Notes: a model not told the origin generated them from the sequence alone. Counted from the first letter of the stretch, positions 21,602 to 29,518 are shown. The stretch is 32,000 nt of DNA from Cupriavidus necator (GCF_016127575.1 NZ_CP066019.1:870001-902000); one strand, 5' to 3'. Made by a program: numbers and translations.

Positions 21602-22645
21602 GTGAAGGTAAGACAGTGGATGGTGATGGGTGCGGCGCTGGCCGCGGGCAATGCCGTGGCGGGCACGATGCAGTTGTTCGGGGTGGTCGATGCATCGATC
21701 GAATACGCCAGGGGCTCGGAAAGCGTGGTGCGCATGCGCGAAGGCCAGCAGGCCGCGTCGCGCTGGGGCATCCGCGGCATCGAGGACCTGGGCGGCGGGC
21801 TCAAGGCCAACTTCCTGGTCGAGTCGGGCTTCAATATCGACAACGGCACCGAGTTCTTCGGCAACAACCGGCTGTTCGGGCGGCAGGCCTATCTGGGCCT
21901 GTCGGGCAACTGGGGCGAGTTCCGGCTGGGGCGGCAGTACACGCCGTCGTTCTATGCGCTGCTGCGGCTGGATCCGTTCCTGCTCAATGGCGCGGTGTCG
22001 CCGTTCAACCTGCTGAGCGCGACCGCATCACAGGGCACCGGGCACGTGGCCTACGGCGCCCGCTTCGACAACGCGGTGCAGTATTTCTCGCCCAAGTGGG
22101 GCGGCTTTTCCTTCGGCGCAGCGGTGGCGCCGGGCGAGGTGCCGGGGTCGGCGCGCTCAGGGCTGAACTTCGGCATGAATGCGACCTACGAGGCCGGCAA
22201 CGTCTACGCGTTCTACTCCTACCAGGGGATGTATTCGGGCGCCAACGTGCCGGTGGAACCGACGCTGACTTCCAACCATTTCGTCGGCGGCTCCTATCGC
22301 TTCAAGCCGGTGGAAATCGGCCTGCTGTACAGCGCCGCCAGCAGCGACCGGCCCGAGACCCGCTCGGCACGCCACTACGGCGTGACCTTCAGCTGGAACG
22401 TGACGCAGCGCGACACCTTCAAGGCCGCCGCACTCAAGCGCCAGATCCTGGGCGGCGGCCAGCGGCCGCTGGCGGTGACGCTGGGGTGGGACCATGACCT
22501 GAGCAAGCGCACCACCGCCTATGTGCGGGCGGTGCTGGTGCATAACAGCCCTGGCGGCAGCGTGAGCAACAACAGCATCGTGATCGATCCGGGTAGCGGG
22601 GATGATGCGAAGTCGGTGAGCGTGGGGTTGCGGCATCGGTTCTGA
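21602..22645 (+). CDS. Outer-membrane general porin (Burkholderiales OmpC/Omp38-like)
   Basis: GTG start. It has a signal peptide ending NAVAG, then the typical N-terminus TMQLFGVVDASIEY...SRWGIRGIEDLGGGLKANFLVESGFNIDNG...GRQAYLGLSG.WGEFRLGRQYTP and a C-terminal aromatic residue (..GLRHRF). Confidence 0.85.
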   Translation: MKVRQWMVMGAALAAGNAVAGTMQLFGVVDASIEYARGSESVVRMREGQQAASRWGIRGIEDLGGGLKANFLVESGFNIDNGTEFFGNNRLFGRQAYLGLSGNWGEFRLGRQYTPSFYALLRLDPFLLNGAVSPFNLLSATASQGTGHVAYGARFDNAVQYFSPKWGGFSFGAAVAPGEVPGSARSGLNFGMNATYEAGNVYAFYSYQGMYSGANVPVEPTLTSNHFVGGSYRFKPVEIGLLYSAASSDRPETRSARHYGVTFSWNVTQRDTFKAAALKRQILGGGQRPLAVTLGWDHDLSKRTTAYVRAVLVHNSPGGSVSNNSIVIDPGSGDDAKSVSVGLRHRF

Positions 22646-23053
22646 AACGGACTGCTGCCCGTTCATGCGGCGCTGAGGCCAAGCGGCTGAGGCTACGGAG
22701 ACCCGGGGCGGGCTGCCACCTGTCCCGTGGCGCTCCCCGCAAACTGGGGGAGGGCGCCAATCTCTAGAACGCATCCCGGGCTGTCGCTCGTGTCGGGTCA
22801 TTTTCCTTTGTGCTTACTCTTCGCGCTTCACAAGGCGAACGAAATCGCACGGAACGACCCTATAGATCATGGCGATACGAGATTGATATAGGACATCCCT
22901 TAATTTCTATTGGAATTCTCATTCAATCGAAAACAATGGCGATATCTGAATAATCCACCTTCCTTCCTCAACGCATAACGGCTACCGTACGCGACGAACG
23001 CATCTTCTTGACGGTCATGCAAATGACGCGAGAAGCAAAGCACCGGAACACTG

Positions 23054-25126
23054 GTGCTTCTGCGGCAAGAGAAAGTTCAACGCTACGGAGTGCTGCACTT
23101 GGATAACCGACCGCCGTTCCTTTCCTCCCGCACCGTCACCGTGTCTGGTCCGGCGTTGCCGGAACTCTTCGGACAGTCCCCCTTTACCTTCGTACGCCTG
23201 GATGGCAAGGAAGGCGTCTGCGGCCTGTTCGAATACGACATCGAACTGAAGACGCCGGACAAGGCCTACAACTTCCACGGCCCGGAAGGCAACTTCGACT
23301 TGCGCGAGATGAACGGGCGCGAGCTGACCGTTCGCATCGAACTGGATGGCATGGGCACCGGGATGGCAGGCGGCGTGGGTGCCGGCACGCGTGAGATCAG
23401 CGGCATAGTGGACCGCGCCCGCTACCTGCGCGCCGAAGGGCGGCACTTTGTCTACGGACTGACCCTGCGTCCCTGGCTGTGGATCGCCTCCCAGAACCGG
23501 AACAGCCGCGTCTTCGAGAACCGCACCGACATCGAGATCATCGAAGAGGTCCTGTCTGCATACTCCTTTCCGGTTGAGCGCAGGCTCGACGTGGCGAAAT
23601 ACCCCAGGCGGGTCTACCGCACCCAGTGCGACGAGAGCGACTACACCTTCATCGCCCGCCTCATGCAGCACTGGGGCATATCGTGGTTCTTCGAACATTC
23701 TGACGGCAAGCACCGCCTGGTTCTGGTCGATCACGTCGGTGGCTATTTCAGCATGCCGAGCGAGGCGTACCAGGTGCTGGAAATCCATCCGCCTGGCGTC
23801 AGGGTCGACCAGGAACACCTCGATGCGTTCTCGGTTGTCGATGCCGTGGTCGCAGGCAAGTACACGACCAATGCCTACAGCTTCACCCAGCCGCGCGGCA
23901 ACCTGAGCGCCAGCAGTTCGGACCCGCGGGACACGGGCCTGAACACTGGCGCGCTGCACCAGGAGGTGTACGACTTCCCCAGCGAGCATGCCCAGCCGGC
24001 CACGGACAACCGCCCGTGGGACGAAGGCGACATGATCGCCCGCATCCGCATGGAGGAAATCCGTTCGCGTGGCCTGCGCTGCTTTGGCACCGGCAACCTG
24101 CGCGCGGTGGTGCCAGGCTGCACCATGAATGTGAAGGGACACCCCCAGCAGGCGGCCAACCGCGAGTACGTGGTGCTTGGCGCCAACCTCAGGCTGGAAG
24201 ACGTGGCCGAGGCCTCCGGCGAGGGCCAGCGCTGGCATTGCCGCGTCGAGTTCGAGTGCCACCCCACCCATGAGGTCTTCCGTCCGGCGCTGAGCATCCC
24301 GTGGCCGGTGGTCGCTGGGCCGCAAAGCGCGACCGTGGTCGGGCCGGAAGACAGCCATGTCGTGTGGCCGGATCAGTATGGGCGCGTCCGCGTCCAGTTT
24401 CCGTGGGACCGCTTCAACAAGATGTCCTGCTGGGTGCGCGTGGCCACGCCGTGGGCGGGCTCACAGTACGGCCAGATCAGCATCCCGCGTATCGGCAGCG
24501 AAGTTCTGGTGATGTTCCTGGACGGCGGCGATCCGGACAAGCCCATTGTGATGGGGGCGGTGCCGAACAGCCTCAACATGCCGCCATGGCAGCTGCCGGA
24601 CCAGCTCGCTCTCACCGGCATTCGCAGCCGCGAGCACGATGGTGGTCGTAGTAACCACCTGGTGCTGGACGACACCAAGGGAAAAATCCAGGCGCAGCTC
24701 GCATCGGACCACCTGCAGTCGCAGATCAGCATGGGGTACATCACCGGCATTCCTGACGTGCAGGGACGCCGCGACAAGCGTGGTGAGGGGCTGGAGGCGC
24801 GCACCGATGGACATGCCGCGCTACGCGCGGCGTTGGGCATGCTGCTAACCACCTACCCCCGATCCCGCGCACGCGACGCGTGTCTGGTACGCCTATTCGC
24901 ATGTGGCCTGGACCAAGGCCCAACTGAACGACAACAAGCACAAAGTCGATGTGCGCAGGGCTCATATGCAATGCCTCGACGTGGCCGCCTGGATGGGCAA
25001 CCAGAACCAGCCACACGCCGGCCGCGCGACGGAAATCAACAAGCGCGTGGCATCGTTCGCCATGACGCCCGAAGCGCAGCAACAAGCATTCCGGCATCTG
25101 AGCGCCACACCACCCGGAACCATTAA
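23054..25126 (+). CDS. vgrG: T6SS VgrG spike protein; VgrG-like only to about codon 602 (nt about 24859), then an out-of-frame tail (probable truncation or pseudogene)
   Basis: gp27-like and gp5-like hallmarks are present: FEYDIELKT, RFFVYGLTLRPWLW-type block (RHFVYGLTLRPWLWIA), QCDESDYTFIARLMQHWGISWFFEH, GPQSATVVGPE...VWPDQYGRVRVQFPWDR, SCWVRVATPWAG.QYG.ISIPRIGSEVLVMFLDGGDPDKPIVMGAV, NHLVLDDTKGKIQAQL, and GLEARTDGHAALRAALGMLLTT. After ..TTYP the frame gives 88 Arg-rich residues that overlap the next ORF. The start codon is uncertain: a GTG at 23054, or a TTG at 23099 preceded by GGAG. Confidence 0.85.
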   Translation: MLLRQEKVQRYGVLHLDNRPPFLSSRTVTVSGPALPELFGQSPFTFVRLDGKEGVCGLFEYDIELKTPDKAYNFHGPEGNFDLREMNGRELTVRIELDGMGTGMAGGVGAGTREISGIVDRARYLRAEGRHFVYGLTLRPWLWIASQNRNSRVFENRTDIEIIEEVLSAYSFPVERRLDVAKYPRRVYRTQCDESDYTFIARLMQHWGISWFFEHSDGKHRLVLVDHVGGYFSMPSEAYQVLEIHPPGVRVDQEHLDAFSVVDAVVAGKYTTNAYSFTQPRGNLSASSSDPRDTGLNTGALHQEVYDFPSEHAQPATDNRPWDEGDMIARIRMEEIRSRGLRCFGTGNLRAVVPGCTMNVKGHPQQAANREYVVLGANLRLEDVAEASGEGQRWHCRVEFECHPTHEVFRPALSIPWPVVAGPQSATVVGPEDSHVVWPDQYGRVRVQFPWDRFNKMSCWVRVATPWAGSQYGQISIPRIGSEVLVMFLDGGDPDKPIVMGAVPNSLNMPPWQLPDQLALTGIRSREHDGGRSNHLVLDDTKGKIQAQLASDHLQSQISMGYITGIPDVQGRRDKRGEGLEARTDGHAALRAALGMLLTTYPRSRARDACLVRLFACGLDQGPTERQQAQSRCAQGSYAMPRRGRLDGQPEPATRRPRDGNQQARGIVRHDARSAATSIPASERHTTRNH

Positions 25127-27062
25127 CCTGGGCGAGATTGCTCCGATTGGCCCCATAAGCGGTTCGATGCTTGCGGATCGGATGGAGATCGTGTCCCCCG
25201 GCAAGGCGATGATGCTGGCGTTCAATGATCCGCTCGCAATCACTGAAGACCTGGGCATCCTGACCAATCCCAAGCTGCACGCTAAGGCAAACAACGGCGT
25301 CATCTGGGACAAGGCAACAGATCTGTTCCTGGATACGCTCGAAAAGAACATCCGGGCCAACGCCGAGGCGCAGCACACGAAAGAGGCGGAGGCCGCGGCG
25401 GCCGAGGCTGAGCGCATGAAGACCACGCCGGATGGATTTCCGGCTTACGAACTCATGTCGGTTCTGTTTAATGGAAAAGCGACGGCCGAGCGATGGAAGC
25501 GCGAAGATGCGGAGCGTGAAGCCACGCGACTTGCCCGCAAGAAAGCCGCCAGTGACGCCGCCTGGAAACCCTACGAAGACGAACTCACGCCAGGCAAGCG
25601 CCACCAGGACCTGAGTCCCAGACTGAAGGCCCTCAACGAGGACGTGCTGGCACCCATTGCGACCTCGCTCGCACAGTGGCTCATGAGTCCTCAGCTTGCT
25701 TCCTACATGCAATACCGGCATGACAAGATGGACCTGCCGCACGGCTATGTCTACAACGAATCCCTGACGCGCTGCCTGGAGAACGCGCTCGACACCGTGG
25801 AATGCCGTCGGGTCATCCAGCGTTGGTTCAACGAGGCGAATCCGGAGAACCACAGCAATCTGCTTGCGCGCGCCCTGTTGCTGGACCACAAGCCCATCAT
25901 CGACACGGTGCCGGACCCGACCGACCAGGGCTATGCTGCCATCTTCGGCATCCTGAAGAGCGGTCTCGACAAGATGGACTCCATGGCAAAGGGCCTCACT
26001 CTTCCCGAAGCCCTAGCGAAGATGGGCCTGGTACCGCGCCTGACCTGGATACTGGCCGACCAGATCATCCCGACCCTTGCAAACAGCTTCAGTTCGGCAT
26101 CGGCCAGGCTCGCCTTGTACGGGATGAGCCTGCTAGGCGGCGTGCGCCTGATCGCCCCGACGGCCAGCGTCATGCAAATCCGCGCGGTCGTGCTGAACGA
26201 TCTCTCCACAGTGAATCCGGAGTTGTACAAGCAACTGGACCGCACCCGACGGCGCGAGGACGCCGTGGCACTCGGACGCGCGGCCAAGCGCATGGCTCAA
26301 ACCGCCAGATTGGTGTGGTTCAAGACAGAGGACCTGGAGCGCATTCCGGAACTGAGCGCCCTCAAGCTGCGTACCGCCAATGACGTGCCTGGGGTGCGGC
26401 AAGTCAAGGCGGTCCTGGGTTCACGCTTCGTGAATGTCGGGGCGGTCGCCTGCATCCTGCAGGGACTGGCACTCTATCACGCCACGCAATCGTTCCGCGC
26501 AGCGGGCGAGTTCGACGAACCCGAAAGAGGAATCAAGCTGGTCGGCGGCCTGGTGTCCATGGCCGGGACCCTTGCCGAGCAGACTGGCGTCGTGCTGGAG
26601 AAGGCGCCGACGCACGTAATTGTCCGGCGCATCATGCGCTCGCCGCCGAAGGCGGAATGGCTGGAAATGGGCAAGAAGCTGGCTGTCAGAGGGCGTTGGA
26701 TTGGTTTTGCCGGGGCTGCAGTTGGGGTGGGATGGGATGCGTACCATGCCTACGATGAAGGCATGAGGGGAAACCGGACAGTCTCAATACTATATTTTGG
26801 CTCTGCGATGTCCGGAGGCGCAGCAGCCGTCCTCCCGCTGGCGACTGAAGAATTCCTGGCCTTCCTCGTTGGGGTGCCTAGCTGGCCGTTCCTAGTCGTG
26901 TTGCTCGCGGTGAACATCGGCATCCTGATACTAGACGACCCGGCGACGCTCAAGTGGGCCAAGCGTTGCCGTTTCAGCAAGGGACCCGCCAGCGAACGCT
27001 ACACCAGCCTGGAGACCGAGTCGTTCGAGTTCGTGCAACTGGGCCTCAAGGACGTCAAATAG
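24903..27062 (+). CDS. VasX / BTH_I2691-family-like T6SS membrane-targeting toxin, apparently lacking its N-terminal region
   Basis: The frame is open from 24849 (after a TAA at 24846-24848) and has no ATG or SD. The track start is a GTG. The motifs YAYSHVAWTKAQL and GKAMMLAFNDPLAITEDLG match blocks I recall from the middle of the VasX_N/BTH_I2691 effector family. A charged coiled-coil-like segment is present (EAEAAAAEAERMK...REDAEREATRLARKKAA). The C-terminal 330 aa or so hold several long hydrophobic helices (FVNVGAVACILQGLALY, IKLVGGLVSMAGTLA, WIGFAGAAVGVGW, ILYFGSAMSGGAAAVLPLA, FLVGVPSWPFLVVLLAVNIGILIL), as in colicin-like pore formers. Confidence 0.6.
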   Translation: MAWTKAQLNDNKHKVDVRRAHMQCLDVAAWMGNQNQPHAGRATEINKRVASFAMTPEAQQQAFRHLSATPPGTINLGEIAPIGPISGSMLADRMEIVSPGKAMMLAFNDPLAITEDLGILTNPKLHAKANNGVIWDKATDLFLDTLEKNIRANAEAQHTKEAEAAAAEAERMKTTPDGFPAYELMSVLFNGKATAERWKREDAEREATRLARKKAASDAAWKPYEDELTPGKRHQDLSPRLKALNEDVLAPIATSLAQWLMSPQLASYMQYRHDKMDLPHGYVYNESLTRCLENALDTVECRRVIQRWFNEANPENHSNLLARALLLDHKPIIDTVPDPTDQGYAAIFGILKSGLDKMDSMAKGLTLPEALAKMGLVPRLTWILADQIIPTLANSFSSASARLALYGMSLLGGVRLIAPTASVMQIRAVVLNDLSTVNPELYKQLDRTRRREDAVALGRAAKRMAQTARLVWFKTEDLERIPELSALKLRTANDVPGVRQVKAVLGSRFVNVGAVACILQGLALYHATQSFRAAGEFDEPERGIKLVGGLVSMAGTLAEQTGVVLEKAPTHVIVRRIMRSPPKAEWLEMGKKLAVRGRWIGFAGAAVGVGWDAYHAYDEGMRGNRTVSILYFGSAMSGGAAAVLPLATEEFLAFLVGVPSWPFLVVLLAVNIGILILDDPATLKWAKRCRFSKGPASERYTSLETESFEFVQLGLKDVK

Positions 27063-27071
27063 GACTCTTCG

Positions 27072-28187
27072 ATGAAATTCCCGACCAAGGATGAACGCAC
27101 GCCTTTCTACTTCCGCCAACAGGGCAAACCGCTGGGCAAGTGGGAGCAAGAACACCGGCTCCATGTCGGCCAGCCTGCCAGCGAGCATGTGCTGGAGAGC
27201 GGCAATGTCTACCGCATTGATTCGACCTGCCTGGAGATCACCGATGAGTCGCAGGCTCGGATGCAGAACGTTGGTCTGCTTTGGATTATCTGTTCAGCAT
27301 TTGCGTCGTTTTCTCTCTTTTACGGATTATTGCTTGCAACTAGCCCATTCAGAGACTCTGAGGAAATGATGGCGAAGAACGGGTATTGGTTCGGTACGAT
27401 CGTCGGCATATTACTTGGCTTTAGTTCTGCAGGCTTCTTCGGTCTGCTTGCCTTCGATCCGATGCGTCGCAACATGTTCACGCTGAAGCGCCGCCCCATC
27501 CGCCTGAACCGGAAGACCCGTCGTATCTATGCCATTCGCACCAAGGACCCGGGCGGCATCTGGGAAGTGCCATGGAACCATGACGAATTCTTCTGTGTGG
27601 GCCATCGGCGCATGGGCGGATTTTCACGCGCCTATGACATGTACGACATCCGCCATTACCAGCTCGACGCGAGTGGCAACGTCGTCCGCGCATTCGTGCT
27701 CGGCCAGTTCGTCTTCACCCTGGAAGAAGCCTACGCGCAGTGGGAATACTACCGCCGCTACATGCAGGACGGGCCGGCTGGGCTGCCCGAGCCATATCGC
27801 TTCTGGGCGCCGCGGGAAACGTTCTGGGAAGGCTACAAGATCTGCAGAGGGGGTAAATTCTCCGGAGCGTTCTTCACCTTGACCGACGTCATCTTTGCAC
27901 CGTTCGCACTGCTGGATGCGATCGCCCGCTGGCTCGTGCTCGTCACGTGCAGTGATCCCGTGTGGCCGCCGGAGATCGAGGCGGCGTGCAAGCCCATGCC
28001 CAATGACCCGTACGCGCGCCCGTACGCCGACGACTACATCGGCGTGCCGAGCGGCCCGGATGCCAGGCCCTCCCGCGAGGATCTGGCGCGAATGCTCGAC
28101 CAGCAGCAGGAGCGACGCAAGCGTGGCGCGCTGACCCGCGCGGAAGCGGAAGCCCTGCTTCGAAGCACTACGGAACAGACCACATGA
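27072..28187 (+). CDS. Predicted inner-membrane protein; candidate cognate immunity protein
   Basis: 371 aa. It starts 9 nt after the toxin stop, with AGGA upstream. It has a hydrophobic hairpin (about aa 67-91 VGLLWIICSAFASFSLFYGLLLATS and about aa 105-128 YWFGTIVGILLGFSSAGFFGLLAF) and a third hydrophobic stretch (FFTLTDVIFAPFALLDAIARWLVLV). Codon usage is lower in GC. The position is the one typical of immunity genes. Confidence 0.5.
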   Translation: MKFPTKDERTPFYFRQQGKPLGKWEQEHRLHVGQPASEHVLESGNVYRIDSTCLEITDESQARMQNVGLLWIICSAFASFSLFYGLLLATSPFRDSEEMMAKNGYWFGTIVGILLGFSSAGFFGLLAFDPMRRNMFTLKRRPIRLNRKTRRIYAIRTKDPGGIWEVPWNHDEFFCVGHRRMGGFSRAYDMYDIRHYQLDASGNVVRAFVLGQFVFTLEEAYAQWEYYRRYMQDGPAGLPEPYRFWAPRETFWEGYKICRGGKFSGAFFTLTDVIFAPFALLDAIARWLVLVTCSDPVWPPEIEAACKPMPNDPYARPYADDYIGVPSGPDARPSREDLARMLDQQQERRKRGALTRAEAEALLRSTTEQTT

Positions 28188-28870
28188 CCGCCACTTCGCC
28201 GCTACCAGCGCCTCACGTTATCTTGATAGAGCAACCTTCCAAGGTACCGGGCAAGCGCGGAATGGAAGGATTCTGGGGCATGCGCTACGGGAACAAGACG
28301 GTCCTGACTGCCTACCTGTCGCCGATCGACCTGCTGTTGGACTCAATGCGGGGCAGCGCCCCCAATCAAGCCTTCAAGTTTCCATCCCTTGACCGGCTGC
28401 CCGCAGCCCGCGTGAAGCAAACCTTCCCGACCGGCGTGGAGTTGGACATTGCCTGCGGCTTTCTCGCCCGCGACGGACAGCTCCTGCTCAGCCCAAGCGG
28501 CAAGTGGCGGCGCAACGTCTTGGTGCATGACGTGCGCGCGCCATTGCGGATGGGAATTCTTATGCCTGAATACACCACCGATGGCCGACGCGAGATCAGC
28601 CGTCTCTTTGAGGGCGCAGGTCTCTTTGCCTGGCAGGACACACTGCAGTCGCTAGCCAGGATCTGGAAGGGCGACCGCATGAAGCACGCAATAGACAGCG
28701 CGCTGGCAACCGCAAGTACGGTAGTGCATTCGGCTGGCCAGGTCGTGAACCAGATCGCCGTATTCGATCCGGAGGCGGAACAATGGCATTTTGTCCCTTG
28801 CCAGACGATGGACGATGTGCCGGAGAACAATCACCCACATGGAGGCGGCGACAGCGCCACGGTAGGCTGA
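28184..28870 (+). CDS. Hypothetical soluble protein of unknown family, translationally coupled to the membrane protein gene
   Basis: 228 aa. ATGA start/stop overlap at 28184-28187. It has no signal peptide or TM segment and no motif I recognise. The coding-like composition continues from the preceding ORFs. Confidence 0.5.
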   Translation: MTATSPLPAPHVILIEQPSKVPGKRGMEGFWGMRYGNKTVLTAYLSPIDLLLDSMRGSAPNQAFKFPSLDRLPAARVKQTFPTGVELDIACGFLARDGQLLLSPSGKWRRNVLVHDVRAPLRMGILMPEYTTDGRREISRLFEGAGLFAWQDTLQSLARIWKGDRMKHAIDSALATASTVVHSAGQVVNQIAVFDPEAEQWHFVPCQTMDDVPENNHPHGGGDSATVG

Positions 28871-28986
28871 CGTTGATTCGGAGCGTCTCGGCCAGACGAC
28901 ACGTTGTTCAATTCAGCCTTTCCTTGAGGCCATGTAATTTGAGACCCTCACCTCACCATGCAGACCGGCGAAATATCAAGGAAGTC

Positions 28987-29014
28987 GCGCCGGCACGGTA
29001 TCCCGTGCCGGCGC
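28987..29014 (-). terminator. Rho-independent-type terminator hairpin between convergent genes
   Basis: Perfect 12-bp stem GCGCCGGCACGG / CCGTGCCGGCGC with loop TATC, 19 nt downstream of the SRPBCC stop (29033). The minus-strand trailing sequence is GACTTCCTTGATATTTC, which is moderately T-rich. It could also stop the + strand island transcript. Confidence 0.6.
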
Positions 29015-29032
29015 CATTCACTTGCCGCAGCC

Positions 29033-29518
29033 CTACTTCAACTGCTGCGCAAACTCATCCAGCTGCGTAATGCAGATGCCCCAGCCTTCATAGAACCCCA
29101 GCTCCTCATGCTGCTTGCGCGTGGCCTCGTCCGGATGCATCACGCGCGCAATGTAGCGGGTGCCGTCACCCTCGTCGGCCATGGTGATGACCGCGGTCAT
29201 CGACAGCCACGGCTTGTTGGGCCGGTACCCGGCCACCAGGGCCGAGGTGGAGACGATCTTCTCCATCGGCACGATCTCGAGGAAGCATCCCGGGTTGTCG
29301 CTGACGCCGCCGTCCGGGCCTTTCATGAGGGTATGGAAGGCGCCGCCGGGGCGCATGTCGAAGGCCAGGACCTCGGTGGTCCAGGGTTTGGGGCACCACC
29401 ATTCCTTGAGCAGCTTGGGATCGCTCCATGCACGCCAGACCTTGGCACGCGGGGCCTTGAGCAGGCGCGAGATGACCAGGTCCTGGCTTTCAGGGCTGGC
29501 GGCGTTTTCATTCGGCAT
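29033..29518 (-). CDS. SRPBCC-superfamily protein (AHSA1/Aha1-like START fold)
   Basis: The start was trimmed to the ATG at 29516-29518. It reads LVISRLLKAPRAKVWRAWSDPKLLKEWWCPKPW....MRPGGAF...G.YEGWGICITQLDEF, typical of the ArsR-associated SRPBCC proteins. Confidence 0.8.
   Translation of the reverse strand: MPNENAASPESQDLVISRLLKAPRAKVWRAWSDPKLLKEWWCPKPWTTEVLAFDMRPGGAFHTLMKGPDGGVSDNPGCFLEIVPMEKIVSTSALVAGYRPNKPWLSMTAVITMADEGDGTRYIARVMHPDEATRKQHEELGFYEGWGICITQLDEFAQQLK

What the first reader, a model, noticed from the sequence alone, without database searches (positions are those of the whole stretch)
22800..28900. Orphan, compositionally foreign T6SS module (vgrG, VasX/BTH_I2691-like toxin and two small ORFs) wedged between a porin gene and an arsR operon
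At about 22800 the sequence changes character. A leader of about 250 nt is AT-rich (for example ttaatttctattggaattctcattcaatcgaaaacaatgg). The four co-directional ORFs at 23054-28870 use visibly less GC3-biased codons than the genes on either side. They have no functional link to the acyl-CoA/porin operon on the left or the arsR/sorAB genes on the right. ORF1 carries unmistakable VgrG blocks. ORF2 has motifs and a multi-helix hydrophobic C-terminus like colicin-type pore-forming T6SS effectors. ORF3 is a membrane protein in the immunity position. ORF4 is unassignable. No hcp, PAAR, tss core, DUF4123/DUF2169/DUF1795 adaptor, integrase, transposase or tRNA is in the window, and I found no flanking direct repeats. 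It therefore looks like an auxiliary (orphan) vgrG island whose mode of acquisition is unclear. This is the best candidate in the window for an uncharacterised toxin/immunity system.
Basis: partly seen in the sequence, partly recalled or inferred. Interest (0 to 1): 0.75.

Follow-up and report, generated by a model that had tools for sequence, protein, structure and literature searches.

The report
Decayed T6SS toxin-immunity island remnant
This is a horizontally exchanged bacterial weapon cassette (spike, pore-forming toxin, antidote) in Cupriavidus necator H16 that two deletions have disarmed while leaving the antidote genes intact; it is an ordinary, degraded member of a well-studied toxin family.

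Summary
Window 22812-29032 has 61% GC against 68-69% in the flanks, and GC3 of 0.73-0.83 against 0.85-0.93. The block sits between a porin gene and AHSA1-arsR, which are directly adjacent in six related Cupriavidus species.

The window is C. necator H16-type chromosome 2 (H16_B0853-B0856). The module belongs to a characterised kind: vgrG, DUF4123 adaptor, BTH_I2691/VasX/Tke5-family MIX pore-forming toxin, DUF6708 membrane immunity, PAAR.

- A 2,027-bp deletion (junction at 24858) is visible against a 99.7-99.8% identical C. necator strain. It removed the vgrG 3' end (DUF2345), the whole adaptor gene and toxin codons 1-134 (most of the MIX loading domain). ORF1 therefore ends in 89 out-of-frame codons.
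- A second, 240-bp deletion (junction 28843|28844) removed PAAR. Its last 8 codons are fused to ORF4.

This explains why no adaptor or PAAR is present.

Acquisition also has an explanation. The block is 98.6-99.4% identical to C. taiwanensis, whereas the flanks are 85-92% identical, and the tract begins inside the porin gene. That pattern indicates homologous recombination through the flanks.

DUF6708 is intact, so H16 most likely keeps defence only. ORF4 belongs to a small, undescribed family linked to T6SS cargo loci, with a confident predicted fold and no structural match.

The parts
21800..22645 (+). 3' part of the porin gene. It lies inside the high-identity tract shared with C. taiwanensis, so the left recombination crossover is at about 21650-21800.
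   Evidence: Sliding identity of L003 against L034 rises from 0.88-0.90 to at least 0.97 here. The porin gene as a whole is 96.5% identical, against 90-91% for the genes further left.
22646..22811 (.). GC-rich spacer (GC 0.67) between the porin stop codon and the island leader. It is present in C. necator and C. taiwanensis but absent from the L036 version of the island.
   Evidence: Homology with empty-site relatives ends at 22645-22649.
22812..23098 (+). AT-rich leader of the module (GC 0.48). It is conserved in the L036/L037 version of the island and contains one sigma-70-like hexamer pair at 22927-22954.
   Evidence: The promoter scan found no more sites than chance would give, so promoter function is not shown.
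23099..24858 (+). vgrG remnant (H16_B0853): native codons 1-586 of 824. It keeps the gp27-like and gp5 OB domains and the first 82 of 108 positions of the T6SS_Vgr beta-helix, and has lost DUF2345 and the C-terminus.
   Evidence: Pfam and NCBIfam hits. The intact 824-aa orthologue in L003 has DUF2345 at residues 645-794.
24858..24858 (.). Junction of the 2,027-bp deletion (L003 5761-7786 plus one ambiguous base). There is only 1-2 bp of microhomology (C/CC), and the length is not a multiple of 3.
   Evidence: The same junction is present in AM260480.1, CP196536.1 and BCZN01000012.1.
24859..25126 (+). Out-of-frame tail of the vgrG remnant: 89 nonsense codons read from toxin-gene DNA, ending at TAA 25124-25126.
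   Evidence: Three-frame translation and the stop codon. The 675-aa product matches cluster member P0033.
24858..27062 (+). Toxin remnant (H16_B0854): codons 135-868 of a BTH_I2691/VasX-family MIX pore-forming effector. The first two MIX motifs are lost and the third (VWYAYSHVAWT) is kept. The whole alpha-helical region and the C-terminal hydrophobic helices are retained. The frame is open from 24849, the first start codon is GTG 24903, and no start codon has a good Shine-Dalgarno sequence.
   Evidence: NF041559 matches profile positions 129-853 of 858. VasX_N maps to residues 20-181 of the intact protein only. Alignment to the Tke5 structure 9r8g_A is, hydrophobic segments and the start-codon scan.
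27072..28187 (+). DUF6708 inner-membrane protein (by gene order H16_B0855), the predicted immunity protein for the toxin. It is intact and 100% identical to the copy in the strain with the intact module.
   Evidence: Pfam PF20455 at 8e-20. Three hydrophobic segments. It lies immediately downstream of the effector in every module examined. There are no SNPs against L003. S. rhizophila Tsi3a precedent: PMC13340143.
28184..28843 (+). ORF4 native part (220 codons; by gene order H16_B0856). It belongs to an undescribed, probably cytoplasmic family associated with T6SS cargo loci, and its start overlaps the ORF3 stop by 4 bp (ATGA).
28844..28870 (+). PAAR gene remnant: the last 8 codons (GGDSATVG) plus the stop codon, fused in frame to ORF4 by a 240-bp deletion (junction 28843|28844).
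   Evidence: Alignment with C. taiwanensis L034, where ORF4 ends in TAA and an 85-aa PAAR gene follows. That gene matches the PAAR_motif family at 1.3e-25.
28871..29032 (.). Right-hand intergenic region, carried with the island (97.5% identical to C. taiwanensis). It contains a hairpin at 28977-29024. Homology with empty-site relatives resumes at 29032-29035, the AHSA1 stop codon.
   Evidence: (inverted repeat I2).

Best explanation
Region 22812-29032 is an auxiliary type VI secretion cargo module lying in the convergent intergenic region between a porin gene and AHSA1-arsR on chromosome 2 of Cupriavidus necator H16.

Ancestral form (seen intact in related strains): vgrG, tap (DUF4123 adaptor), a MIX-domain BTH_I2691/VasX-family pore-forming toxin, a DUF6708 membrane immunity protein, ORF4 and PAAR.

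How the intact module works, inferred from the characterised homologues Tke5, Ptx2 and VasX. The adaptor binds the toxin's N-terminal MIX domain and tethers it to the VgrG spike. The T6SS encoded on chromosome 1 fires the spike. The toxin's alpha-helical region inserts into the target's inner membrane and dissipates the membrane potential. The DUF6708 protein neutralises the toxin in the producer's membrane.

In H16 the offensive half is destroyed.
- One 2,027-bp deletion removed the VgrG C-terminal beta-helix/DUF2345 region, the whole adaptor gene and toxin codons 1-134. It also frameshifted vgrG into the toxin gene.
- An older 240-bp deletion, shared with other C. necator strains, removed PAAR.
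- The toxin remnant has no evident ribosome-binding site.

The immunity gene and ORF4 are intact. The locus in H16 therefore most likely works only as a defensive orphan-immunity locus, protecting against sibling Cupriavidus that still fire the roughly 99% identical toxin.

The module moves between Cupriavidus species by homologous recombination through the conserved flanks, not by its own mobility genes.

Shown directly: gene content, both deletions, the empty sites and the recombination tract. Inferred: toxin mechanism, immunity function, loss of delivery and the defensive role.
For: Identity of the window:
- It is 100% identical to CP196536.1 and 99.993% identical to AM260480.1 (H16 chromosome 2).

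Family assignments:
- See for the window's proteins.
- The intact orthologues in L003 give DUF2345 at 2e-44, DUF4123 at 3.7e-9 and VasX_N at 1.2e-35.

The 2,027-bp deletion:
- Alignment to L003 breaks at window 24858, with 99.7-99.8% identity on both sides.
- The L003 gene map is vgrG 824 aa, DUF4123 304 aa, effector 868 aa, DUF6708 371 aa, ORF4 228 aa.
- The truncated form is in at least 11 contigs, including independent assemblies. Intact forms occur in other C. necator strains, strain GA3-3, C. taiwanensis and a strain labelled C. nantongensis.

Loss of the MIX domain:
- The intact effector aligns to the Tke5 structure 9r8g_A (residues 29-204 against 19-195), and the junction falls at residue 134/135.
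- MIX binds the DUF4123 adaptor and is required for export (PMC12909789; bioRxiv 10.1101/2025.04.30.651342).

The PAAR deletion.

Conserved gene order elsewhere.

Insertion and transfer:
- Empty sites in six species.
- The island is 98.6-99.4% identical between C. necator and C. taiwanensis, against 85.6-92% for distal flanks, and the tract starts inside the porin gene.

Immunity gene:
- It has no differences from L003.
- DUF6708 has been assigned as BTH_I2691 immunity in S. rhizophila, where it forms an array with 12 further homologous genes.
- Tandem and orphan DUF6708 genes occur in other loci.

T6SS core elsewhere in the genome.
Against: - No expression, secretion or competition data exist for H16_B0853-B0856; none of the four locus tags appears in the searchable literature.
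- The toxin remnant keeps an uninterrupted 734-codon frame. Its four H16-specific substitutions are all synonymous. That fits a very recent deletion but does not exclude residual function.
- In Tke5 the alpha-helical region alone is toxic when expressed in cells, so a translated remnant could still matter.
- The 'intact' C. necator strain also lacks PAAR, so that deletion alone is not proof of inactivity.
- The immunity role of this DUF6708 protein rests on position, topology and one positional precedent. Whether the validated immunity proteins Tki5, TsiV2 and Pti2 are DUF6708 members was not tested.
- Because the deletion may be very recent, an intact immunity gene is not evidence of selection.
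Confidence: 0.85

Rival explanations
1. One reading: an intact, functional orphan vgrG-toxin-immunity island that works without an adaptor or PAAR and encodes an uncharacterised toxin/immunity pair.
For: All four ORFs are open. VgrG and BTH_I2691 HMM scores are above their cut-offs. Some VasX-family toxins are loaded without a Tap adaptor, through clade I MIX domains that bind VgrG directly.
Against: A near-identical strain shows that 2,027 bp are missing. The lost material comprises DUF2345 and the VgrG C-terminus, the whole adaptor gene and 134 toxin codons, including the first two MIX motifs. ORF1's last 89 codons are out-of-frame toxin DNA. This toxin's orthologues always sit next to a DUF4123 gene. 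The toxin family is well characterised.
Confidence: 0.04
2. The toxin remnant is still translated from an internal start, or by re-initiation after the vgrG-remnant stop at 25126. It would then act as a cis-toxic membrane protein that makes the DUF6708 gene indispensable (an addiction module), or the truncated VgrG would still join the spike.
For: The 734-codon frame is uninterrupted and the H16-specific changes are four synonymous and none non-synonymous. [quoted passage not shown] Annotators-, 631- and 626-aa proteins here.
Against: No in-frame start between 24849 and 25212 has better than a 4-of-6 Shine-Dalgarno match. In the intact locus the toxin start overlaps the adaptor gene end, suggesting translational coupling, and that arrangement is lost. 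Four substitutions are too few to show constraint. There are no expression data.
Confidence: 0.1
3. The block is ancestral to the necator/taiwanensis/nantongensis clade at this site and was inherited vertically. The empty sites would then be repeated precise losses, not a sign of acquisition.
For: The module occupies the same porin|AHSA1 site in three named lineages. In L036 its divergence from C. necator (vgrG 94.8%, tap 95.8%, toxin 90.4%, DUF6708 84.6%) is comparable to that of the flanks at 90-92%.
Against: Between C. necator and C. taiwanensis the island is about 99% identical against about 90% for the flanks, with a sharp boundary inside the porin gene. That pattern requires recent exchange. 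Empty sites carry REP-type intergenic regions with no trace of island sequence. Junctions differ between the L036 version (20-bp direct repeat of the porin 3' end) and the necator/taiwanensis version. GC3 is below the genome norm. Both histories can be partly true: old residence in the clade plus recent allelic exchange.
Confidence: 0.25
4. The short form is an assembly artefact, or it is the ancestral state and the 2-kb segment is an insertion in other strains.
For: None beyond the formal possibility.
Against: The same junction is present in the 2006 H16 record AM260480.1, in CP196536.1, in a draft assembly (BCZN01000012.1) and in at least 11 contigs. The long form restores three complete, family-typical domains and genes and matches the modules of other species.
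Confidence: 0.01

Closest known systems
Pseudomonas putida KT2440 K3-T6SS cargo genes vgrG3-tap3-tke5-tki5-tsp5 (Tke5 is a BTH_I2691-family pore-forming toxin; PMC12909789, PMC13133200)
   Same: The ancestral Cupriavidus module has the same gene order (VgrG, DUF4123 adaptor, MIX-BTH_I2691 toxin, membrane immunity, PAAR). The N-terminus aligns to the MIX domain of the Tke5 structure 9r8g_A. The toxin matches the NF041559 family. It has hydrophobic C-terminal helices.
   Different: - The toxin is 868 aa against 996 aa for Tke5, and sequence similarity is detectable only in the MIX region with a single-sequence search (E = 4e-4).
- The module is orphan, on a different replicon from the T6SS core.
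- An extra gene (ORF4) lies between the immunity gene and PAAR.
- In H16 the adaptor, PAAR, the VgrG C-terminus and half of the MIX domain are deleted.
- Whether Tki5 is a DUF6708 protein was not tested.
Vibrio cholerae auxiliary cluster 2 (hcp2-vgrG2-vasW-vasX-tsiV2). Gene order is from my own knowledge; the VasX/TsiV2 pair is as cited in PMC13133200.
   Same: It is an auxiliary (non-core) cluster in which a DUF4123-type adaptor loads a VasX-family membrane-depolarising toxin onto VgrG, with the immunity gene downstream.
   Different: There is no hcp gene here. The proteins are distantly related, and the H16 copy is degraded.
Stenotrophomonas rhizophila vgrG3-tap3-tse3-tsi3a followed by further homologous tsi3 genes (PMC13340143)
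   Same: A BTH_I2691 toxin with a MIX domain is followed by a DUF6708 protein assigned as its immunity. Extra immunity copies without toxins resemble the tandem and orphan DUF6708 genes seen in L038 and L031.
   Different: Immunity in S. rhizophila is assigned by position and proteomics, not, in the passages I read, by a protection assay. H16 has a single copy.
Orphan immunity genes and degenerate effector loci in T6SS-bearing species (for example V. cholerae orphan immunity arrays and Bacteroidales acquired interbacterial defence islands; from my own knowledge)
   Same: The immunity gene is retained after the cognate effector or its delivery genes have been lost or disabled, which predicts defence against kin.
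   Different: Here the toxin body is still present as an open frame next to the immunity gene, and the disarming event is a single identifiable deletion.

Membership tests
VgrG / TssI spike protein | gp27-like hub domain (Phage_GPD) and gp5-like OB domain (Phage_base_V) | tested here: met
   PF05954 at 1.1e-79, PF04717 at 1.6e-15 and TIGR03361 at 403 bits against a cut-off of 186.
VgrG / TssI spike protein | Complete C-terminal beta-helix (T6SS_Vgr plus DUF2345), which forms the tip that carries PAAR and the adaptor-cargo complex | tested here: not met
   T6SS_Vgr matches only profile positions 1-82 of 108 and DUF2345 is absent. The last 89 codons are out of frame. The L003 orthologue has both domains complete.
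BTH_I2691 / VasX family T6SS pore-forming effector (NF041559) | Whole-protein match above the curated cut-off | tested here: met
   303.4 bits against a cut-off of 150, covering profile positions 129-853 of 858.
BTH_I2691 / VasX family T6SS pore-forming effector (NF041559) | N-terminal MIX / VasX_N domain, needed for adaptor binding and export | tested here: not met
   ORF2 gives no VasX_N hit. The intact orthologue has VasX_N at residues 20-181 (1.2e-35). The junction at residue 134/135 leaves only the third motif.
BTH_I2691 / VasX family T6SS pore-forming effector (NF041559) | Hydrophobic helices in the C-terminal part of the alpha-helical region | tested here: met
   Kyte-Doolittle segments at residues 640-658 and 659-677 of the 719-aa ORF. 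This is a crude scan, not a topology predictor.
BTH_I2691 / VasX family T6SS pore-forming effector (NF041559) | Membrane depolarisation / pore formation | not testable with these tools
   Inferred from Tke5, Ptx2 and VasX.
DUF4123 (Tap/TEC) adaptor-dependent cargo module | A DUF4123 gene between vgrG and the effector gene | tested here: not met
   Absent from the window (tblastn). Present in L003, L028, L030, L034 and L036. It lies entirely within the deleted 2,027 bp.
DUF6708 (putative immunity to BTH_I2691 toxins) | Pfam match above the gathering score, membrane segments and a position immediately downstream of the toxin gene | tested here: met
   PF20455 at 71.9 bits against a cut-off of 27. 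Three hydrophobic segments. The position is conserved in all eight module versions examined.
DUF6708 (putative immunity to BTH_I2691 toxins) | Protection against the cognate toxin | not testable with these tools
   Only a positional and proteomic assignment exists, for S. rhizophila Tsi3a.
PAAR spike-tip protein | PAAR_motif domain | tested here: not met
   Only the last 8 codons survive, fused to ORF4. The C. taiwanensis orthologue matches PF05488 at 1.3e-25.
Horizontally acquired genomic island | Atypical composition and an empty site in relatives | tested here: met
   GC and GC3. Six empty sites. None of 21 species-representative loci carries the block.
Horizontally acquired genomic island | Own mobility machinery (integrase or transposase), a tRNA target, or flanking repeats | tested here: not met
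   No tRNA, no mobility gene found in the window and no flanking repeat. A 20-bp direct repeat of the porin 3' end flanks the island only in L036/L037.

The most novel reading that the evidence does not exclude
ORF4 (28184-28843) represents an undescribed protein family tied to T6SS cargo loci. A search of 1.84 billion representative proteins found 82 hits at E <= 1e-3, most of about 200-230 aa. No member matches a Pfam family and only one gives a marginal NCBIfam hit. The AlphaFold model is confident (pLDDT 88, pTM 0.83) but has no match in PDB or BFVD (best TM-score 0.28). In the loci examined it occurs once per locus, translationally coupled either to a DUF6708 immunity gene or to a Tle1-like effector gene, often just upstream of PAAR. 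It could be a new cytoplasmic immunity-type or cargo-loading factor with a new fold.
Probability: 0.35. Interest if true: 0.45.

Novelty: new member of a known kind. Interest (0 to 1): 0.25.

Why it matters
C. necator H16 is a major industrial and model hydrogen-oxidising bacterium.

- **Annotation.** H16_B0853 and H16_B0854 are annotated as ordinary proteins (hypothetical, VgrG, T6SS effector). They are two stumps of one deletion and should be flagged as remnants.
- **Co-culture and safety.** H16 is predicted to be unable to deliver this toxin but still immune to it. That is relevant to co-culture behaviour and to safety dossiers that list its T6SS.
- **A natural experiment.** The locus provides an isogenic-like pair of armed and disarmed strains (99.7-99.8% identical across the locus). 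This pair could be used to test DUF6708 immunity and the role of the MIX, Tap and VgrG C-terminal contacts.
- **How cargo spreads.** It is a clean example of T6SS cargo moving between species by flank-mediated homologous recombination rather than by mobile-element machinery.

None of this is conceptually new for T6SS biology.

Tried and rejected
- **Flanking repeats.** The best pair in the window (D7: 22760-22786 and 29274-29300, 85% over 27 nt) has its second copy inside the conserved AHSA1 gene. I treated it as chance.
- **Plasmid origin.** Megablast of the whole block against 72,556 plasmids found no match.
- **PAAR or adaptor remnants by tblastn.** Nothing was found in the window. The PAAR tail only became visible in a DNA alignment with C. 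taiwanensis.
- **ORF4 structure from a 6-sequence alignment.** The model was unusable (pLDDT 47.7). It was repeated with 44 sequences.
- **ORF4 and Kelch proteins.** The E-values of 1e-11 to designed Kelch proteins come from one 21-residue hairpin motif (FDPExxxWHFVP) matching each blade of a symmetric design. No single stretch is significant, so I rejected it as homology.
- **ORF4 fold searches.** Searches against PDB and viral structures found nothing.
- **Microhomology at the 2,027-bp deletion.** There is only 1-2 bp. A nearby CCCGCGC repeat does not fit the junction.
- **Presence/absence within one species.** The strain labelled C. nantongensis that carries the island (L036) is only about 93% identical to strain HB4B5 (L010) in the flanks. 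I therefore dropped the claim of a within-species polymorphism.
- **Literature on the H16 genes.** None of the four locus tags is mentioned.
- **Promoter scan.** One sigma-70-like site was found in the leader, no more than shuffled sequence gives.
- **The window's own species.** Its representative genome did not appear in the genome scan (best porin identity 95%). I cannot say why.

Full report

Yes. GC falls from 0.67-0.74 to 0.58-0.66 in 1-kb windows between 22501 and 29500. Region 22812-29032 has GC 0.614, against 0.689 to the left and 0.676 to the right.

GC3 is 0.83 for vgrG, 0.76 for the toxin gene, 0.74 for ORF3 and 0.725 for ORF4. Correctly framed flank genes give 0.83-0.93, with arsR an outlier at 0.775.

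The four co-directional ORFs are at the stated coordinates.

HMM searches support the assignments.
- ORF1 is VgrG (TIGR03361 at 1.4e-120, plus Phage_GPD, Phage_base_V and T6SS_Vgr).
- ORF2 matches NF041559 BTH_I2691_fam (4.6e-90; 303 bits against a cut-off of 150).
- ORF3 is DUF6708 (8e-20).
- ORF4 matches nothing.

To the left lie CoA-transferase, enoyl-CoA hydratase, two acyl-CoA dehydrogenases, TctC and a porin. To the right, on the minus strand, lie AHSA1, ArsR-type HTH, cytochrome c and a molybdopterin oxidoreductase.

There is no tRNA and no convincing flanking repeat.

**2. Where the window comes from**

An exact-protein look-up of ORF3 placed the window on chromosome 2 of Cupriavidus necator H16. 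It is 100% identical to CP196536.1. It is 99.993% identical to AM260480.1, with a single 1-bp indel at window 19349.

ORF1 is H16_B0853 and ORF2 is H16_B0854. By gene order, ORF3 and ORF4 are then H16_B0855 and H16_B0856.

The literature places H16's only T6SS core cluster on chromosome 1, at H16_A0645-A0657 (PMC2907695). A 2026 preprint reports a single T6SSi in H16. The module is therefore truly auxiliary, or 'orphan'.

**3.

The HMM hits are truncated in a telling way.
- VgrG stops at position 82 of 108 of the T6SS_Vgr profile and has no DUF2345.
- The toxin match starts at position 129 of 858 of the family profile and has no VasX_N hit.
- ORF1's last roughly 90 residues look like nonsense, and ORF2's frame is open back to 24849.

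A second C. necator genome (CP196451.1, locus L003) is 99.7-99.8% identical on both sides. It carries vgrG (824 aa, with DUF2345), a DUF4123 adaptor gene (304 aa), an 868-aa toxin gene with VasX_N, and then an identical DUF6708 gene and ORF4.

The alignment breaks at window 24858. H16 lacks 2,027 bp (L003 5761-7786 plus one ambiguous base). There is only 1-2 bp of microhomology at the junction.

The deletion has four consequences.
- It removes VgrG codons 587-824.
- It removes the whole adaptor gene.
- It removes toxin codons 1-134.
- Because 2,027 is not a multiple of 3, vgrG runs on for 89 out-of-frame codons, to TAA at 25124-25126.

The same junction is present in the 2006 H16 record, in newer complete genomes and in a draft assembly. 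It is therefore not an assembly artefact. The long form is clearly ancestral, because it restores three complete family-typical domains and matches the modules of other species.

The intact toxin's N-terminus aligns with the MIX domain of the Tke5 cryo-EM structure 9r8g_A (residues 29-204 against 19-195). The junction removes the motifs LPVRYAV and RPGFLYVF and keeps VWYAYSHVAWT.

**4. A second, older deletion**

Against C. taiwanensis (L034), both C. necator versions lack 240 bp. These cover the ORF4 stop codon, a short spacer and codons 1-77 of an 85-aa PAAR gene. The last 8 PAAR codons (GGDSATVG) are fused in frame to ORF4, with the junction at 28843|28844.

In C. taiwanensis ORF4 itself carries a 1-bp frameshift. 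In L036 ORF4 is absent. ORF4 therefore appears dispensable for the module.

**5. What kind of system it is**

The ancestral order is vgrG, DUF4123, MIX-BTH_I2691 toxin, DUF6708, ORF4 (optional) and PAAR. This order recurs in C. taiwanensis, a strain labelled C. nantongensis, C. basilensis and metagenomes. It matches P. putida vgrG3-tap3-tke5-tki5-tsp5 (PMC12909789).

For this family the literature shows the following.
- The MIX domain binds the DUF4123 adaptor, which tethers the toxin to VgrG, and MIX is needed for export.
- The alpha-helical region forms ion-selective pores that depolarise the inner membrane.
- A membrane immunity protein binds that region.

DUF6708 proteins have been assigned as the immunity of a BTH_I2691 toxin in S. 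rhizophila, where the first copy is followed by 12 further homologous genes (PMC13340143).

I therefore infer the same mechanism for the intact Cupriavidus module.

In H16 the adaptor is gone entirely, and the VgrG C-terminus and the first 134 residues of the MIX domain are deleted. The toxin remnant has no start codon with a decent Shine-Dalgarno sequence. Delivery is almost certainly lost.

The immunity gene has no differences from the armed strain. The most likely present function is defence against kin that still carry the roughly 99% identical toxin. This last step is inference.

The remnant's four H16-specific substitutions are all synonymous. That fits a recent deletion. It leaves a small chance that a cis-toxic product is still made.

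**6. How it got there**

In six Cupriavidus species the porin gene abuts AHSA1-arsR-sorBA directly. These are C. phytorum, C. alkaliphilus, a MAG, C. nantongensis HB4B5, 'C. necator' SHC 2-3 and C. neocaledonicus.

In those genomes a 107-232-bp intergenic region full of REP-like palindromes separates the two genes. Homology to the window stops at the porin stop codon (22645-22649) and resumes at the AHSA1 stop codon (29032-35).

None of 21 porin-orthologous loci from species-representative genomes has the block.

The module does occupy the same site in C. taiwanensis and in L036/L037. Between C. necator and C. taiwanensis the identities are as follows.

| Segment | Identity |
|---|---|
| Island, including both intergenic regions | 98.6-99.4% |
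| Porin gene | 96.5% |
| AHSA1 / arsR | about 93% |
| Distal flank genes | 85.6-92% |

A sliding window puts the left edge of the high-identity tract inside the porin gene (about 21650-21800). The right edge is at the AHSA1 stop codon.

This is the signature of recent inter-species exchange by homologous recombination through the flanks. It explains why the island has no integrase, transposase or tRNA.

An older origin is hinted at in L036/L037. There the island starts immediately after the porin stop codon and is flanked by a 20-bp direct repeat of the porin 3' end (19 of 20 identical). The repeat is followed by the native REP-containing intergenic region. The necator/taiwanensis version lacks this repeat. 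It has 166 extra GC-rich bases (22646-22811) on the left instead.

In L036 the island's divergence from C. necator is comparable to that of the flanks. Long residence in part of the clade, together with recent allelic exchange, is the most economical history.

**7. ORF4**

The word-indexed search found only six clusters. An exhaustive HMMER search of 1.84 billion representatives found 82 at E <= 1e-3, mostly of 200-230 aa. The conserved motifs are AGLFAW(R/Q)(D/E)T and FDPExxxWHFVP.

No member matches Pfam, and one gives a marginal NCBIfam hit. The hydrophobicity scan finds no membrane segment, and I see no signal-peptide-like N-terminus.

With a 44-sequence alignment AlphaFold gives a confident alpha/beta model (pLDDT 88.3, pTM 0.83). 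It has no Foldseek match in PDB (best E = 0.039, TM 0.12) or BFVD.

The apparent hits to designed Kelch proteins are a repeated short-motif artefact.

The family occurs once per locus in T6SS cargo neighbourhoods.
- After DUF6708 and before PAAR (L028, L038).
- As an orphan DUF6708-ORF4 pair overlapping by 4 bp (L031/L032).
- Overlapping by 4 bp with the end of a Tle1-like effector gene (L040/L041).
- Downstream of a PAAR-toxin gene (L042).

My best guess is an immunity-type neutralising protein (about 40%). It persists without cargo, is translationally coupled and diverges fast. A cargo- or PAAR-loading factor is the alternative (about 30%). Neither was tested.

**8. Verdict**

It needs two corrections.
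- The module is a deletion-disarmed remnant, not an intact system.
- Its toxin/immunity family is already characterised.

It is a new, degraded member of a known kind, of modest interest. The only potentially new element is the ORF4 family.

Noticed in passing
L036 6322-6341 and 14105-14124 (also L037 4063 and 11846): In the strain labelled C. nantongensis that carries the island, the island is bracketed by a 20-bp direct repeat of the porin gene's 3' end (GCGTGGGGTTGCGGCATCGG / GCGTGGGATTGCGGCATCGG). The native REP-containing intergenic region is preserved to its right. This looks like an att-like or target-duplication scar. It is absent from the window, L003 and L034.
   Followed up: partly
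window 19349: This is the only difference between the window and the 2006 H16 record AM260480.1: one extra A in a GGAAA(A)G run at the 5' end of the second acyl-CoA dehydrogenase gene. It probably explains the different start calls (367 aa against 381 aa).
   Followed up: partly
L007-L013 intergenic regions after the porin gene (for example L010 11045-11238): Empty-site intergenic regions carry one or two REP-like palindromes (CTCTCCCGCnnGCGGGAGAG type). The copy number varies between species.
   Followed up: no
L029 6720-10959; L028 4211-7087: Related modules show independent decay. In another C. necator strain the toxin is cut to 571 aa, no vgrG was called next to the adaptor gene and the ORF after the immunity gene is 40 aa. 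In C. basilensis the called vgrG product is only 506 aa (Phage_GPD match faint), and an IS-associated TnpC_reg fragment lies about 1.2 kb upstream. In both, the DUF6708 gene stays at full length (371 aa).
   Followed up: partly
L038 1981-4144: A different locus in a C. necator MAG carries two tandem DUF6708 genes, followed by an ORF4-family gene and PAAR. The C. necator pangenome therefore holds more than one module of this type.
   Followed up: no
L034 13833: In C. taiwanensis the ORF4 orthologue has a 1-bp deletion that frameshifts it, so a 166-aa internal ORF is called, while PAAR is intact. This is the reverse of the C. necator state.
   Followed up: partly
window 22760-22786 and 29274-29300: A 27-nt direct repeat at 85% identity, with one copy in the left intergenic region and the other inside the AHSA1 coding region. 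I judged it to be chance but did not test that statistically.
   Followed up: no
Genome-contig scan: The species-representative scan returned no locus more than 95% identical to the window's porin, although H16-type genomes are public. The window's own species representative seems to be missing or masked in that collection.
   Followed up: no
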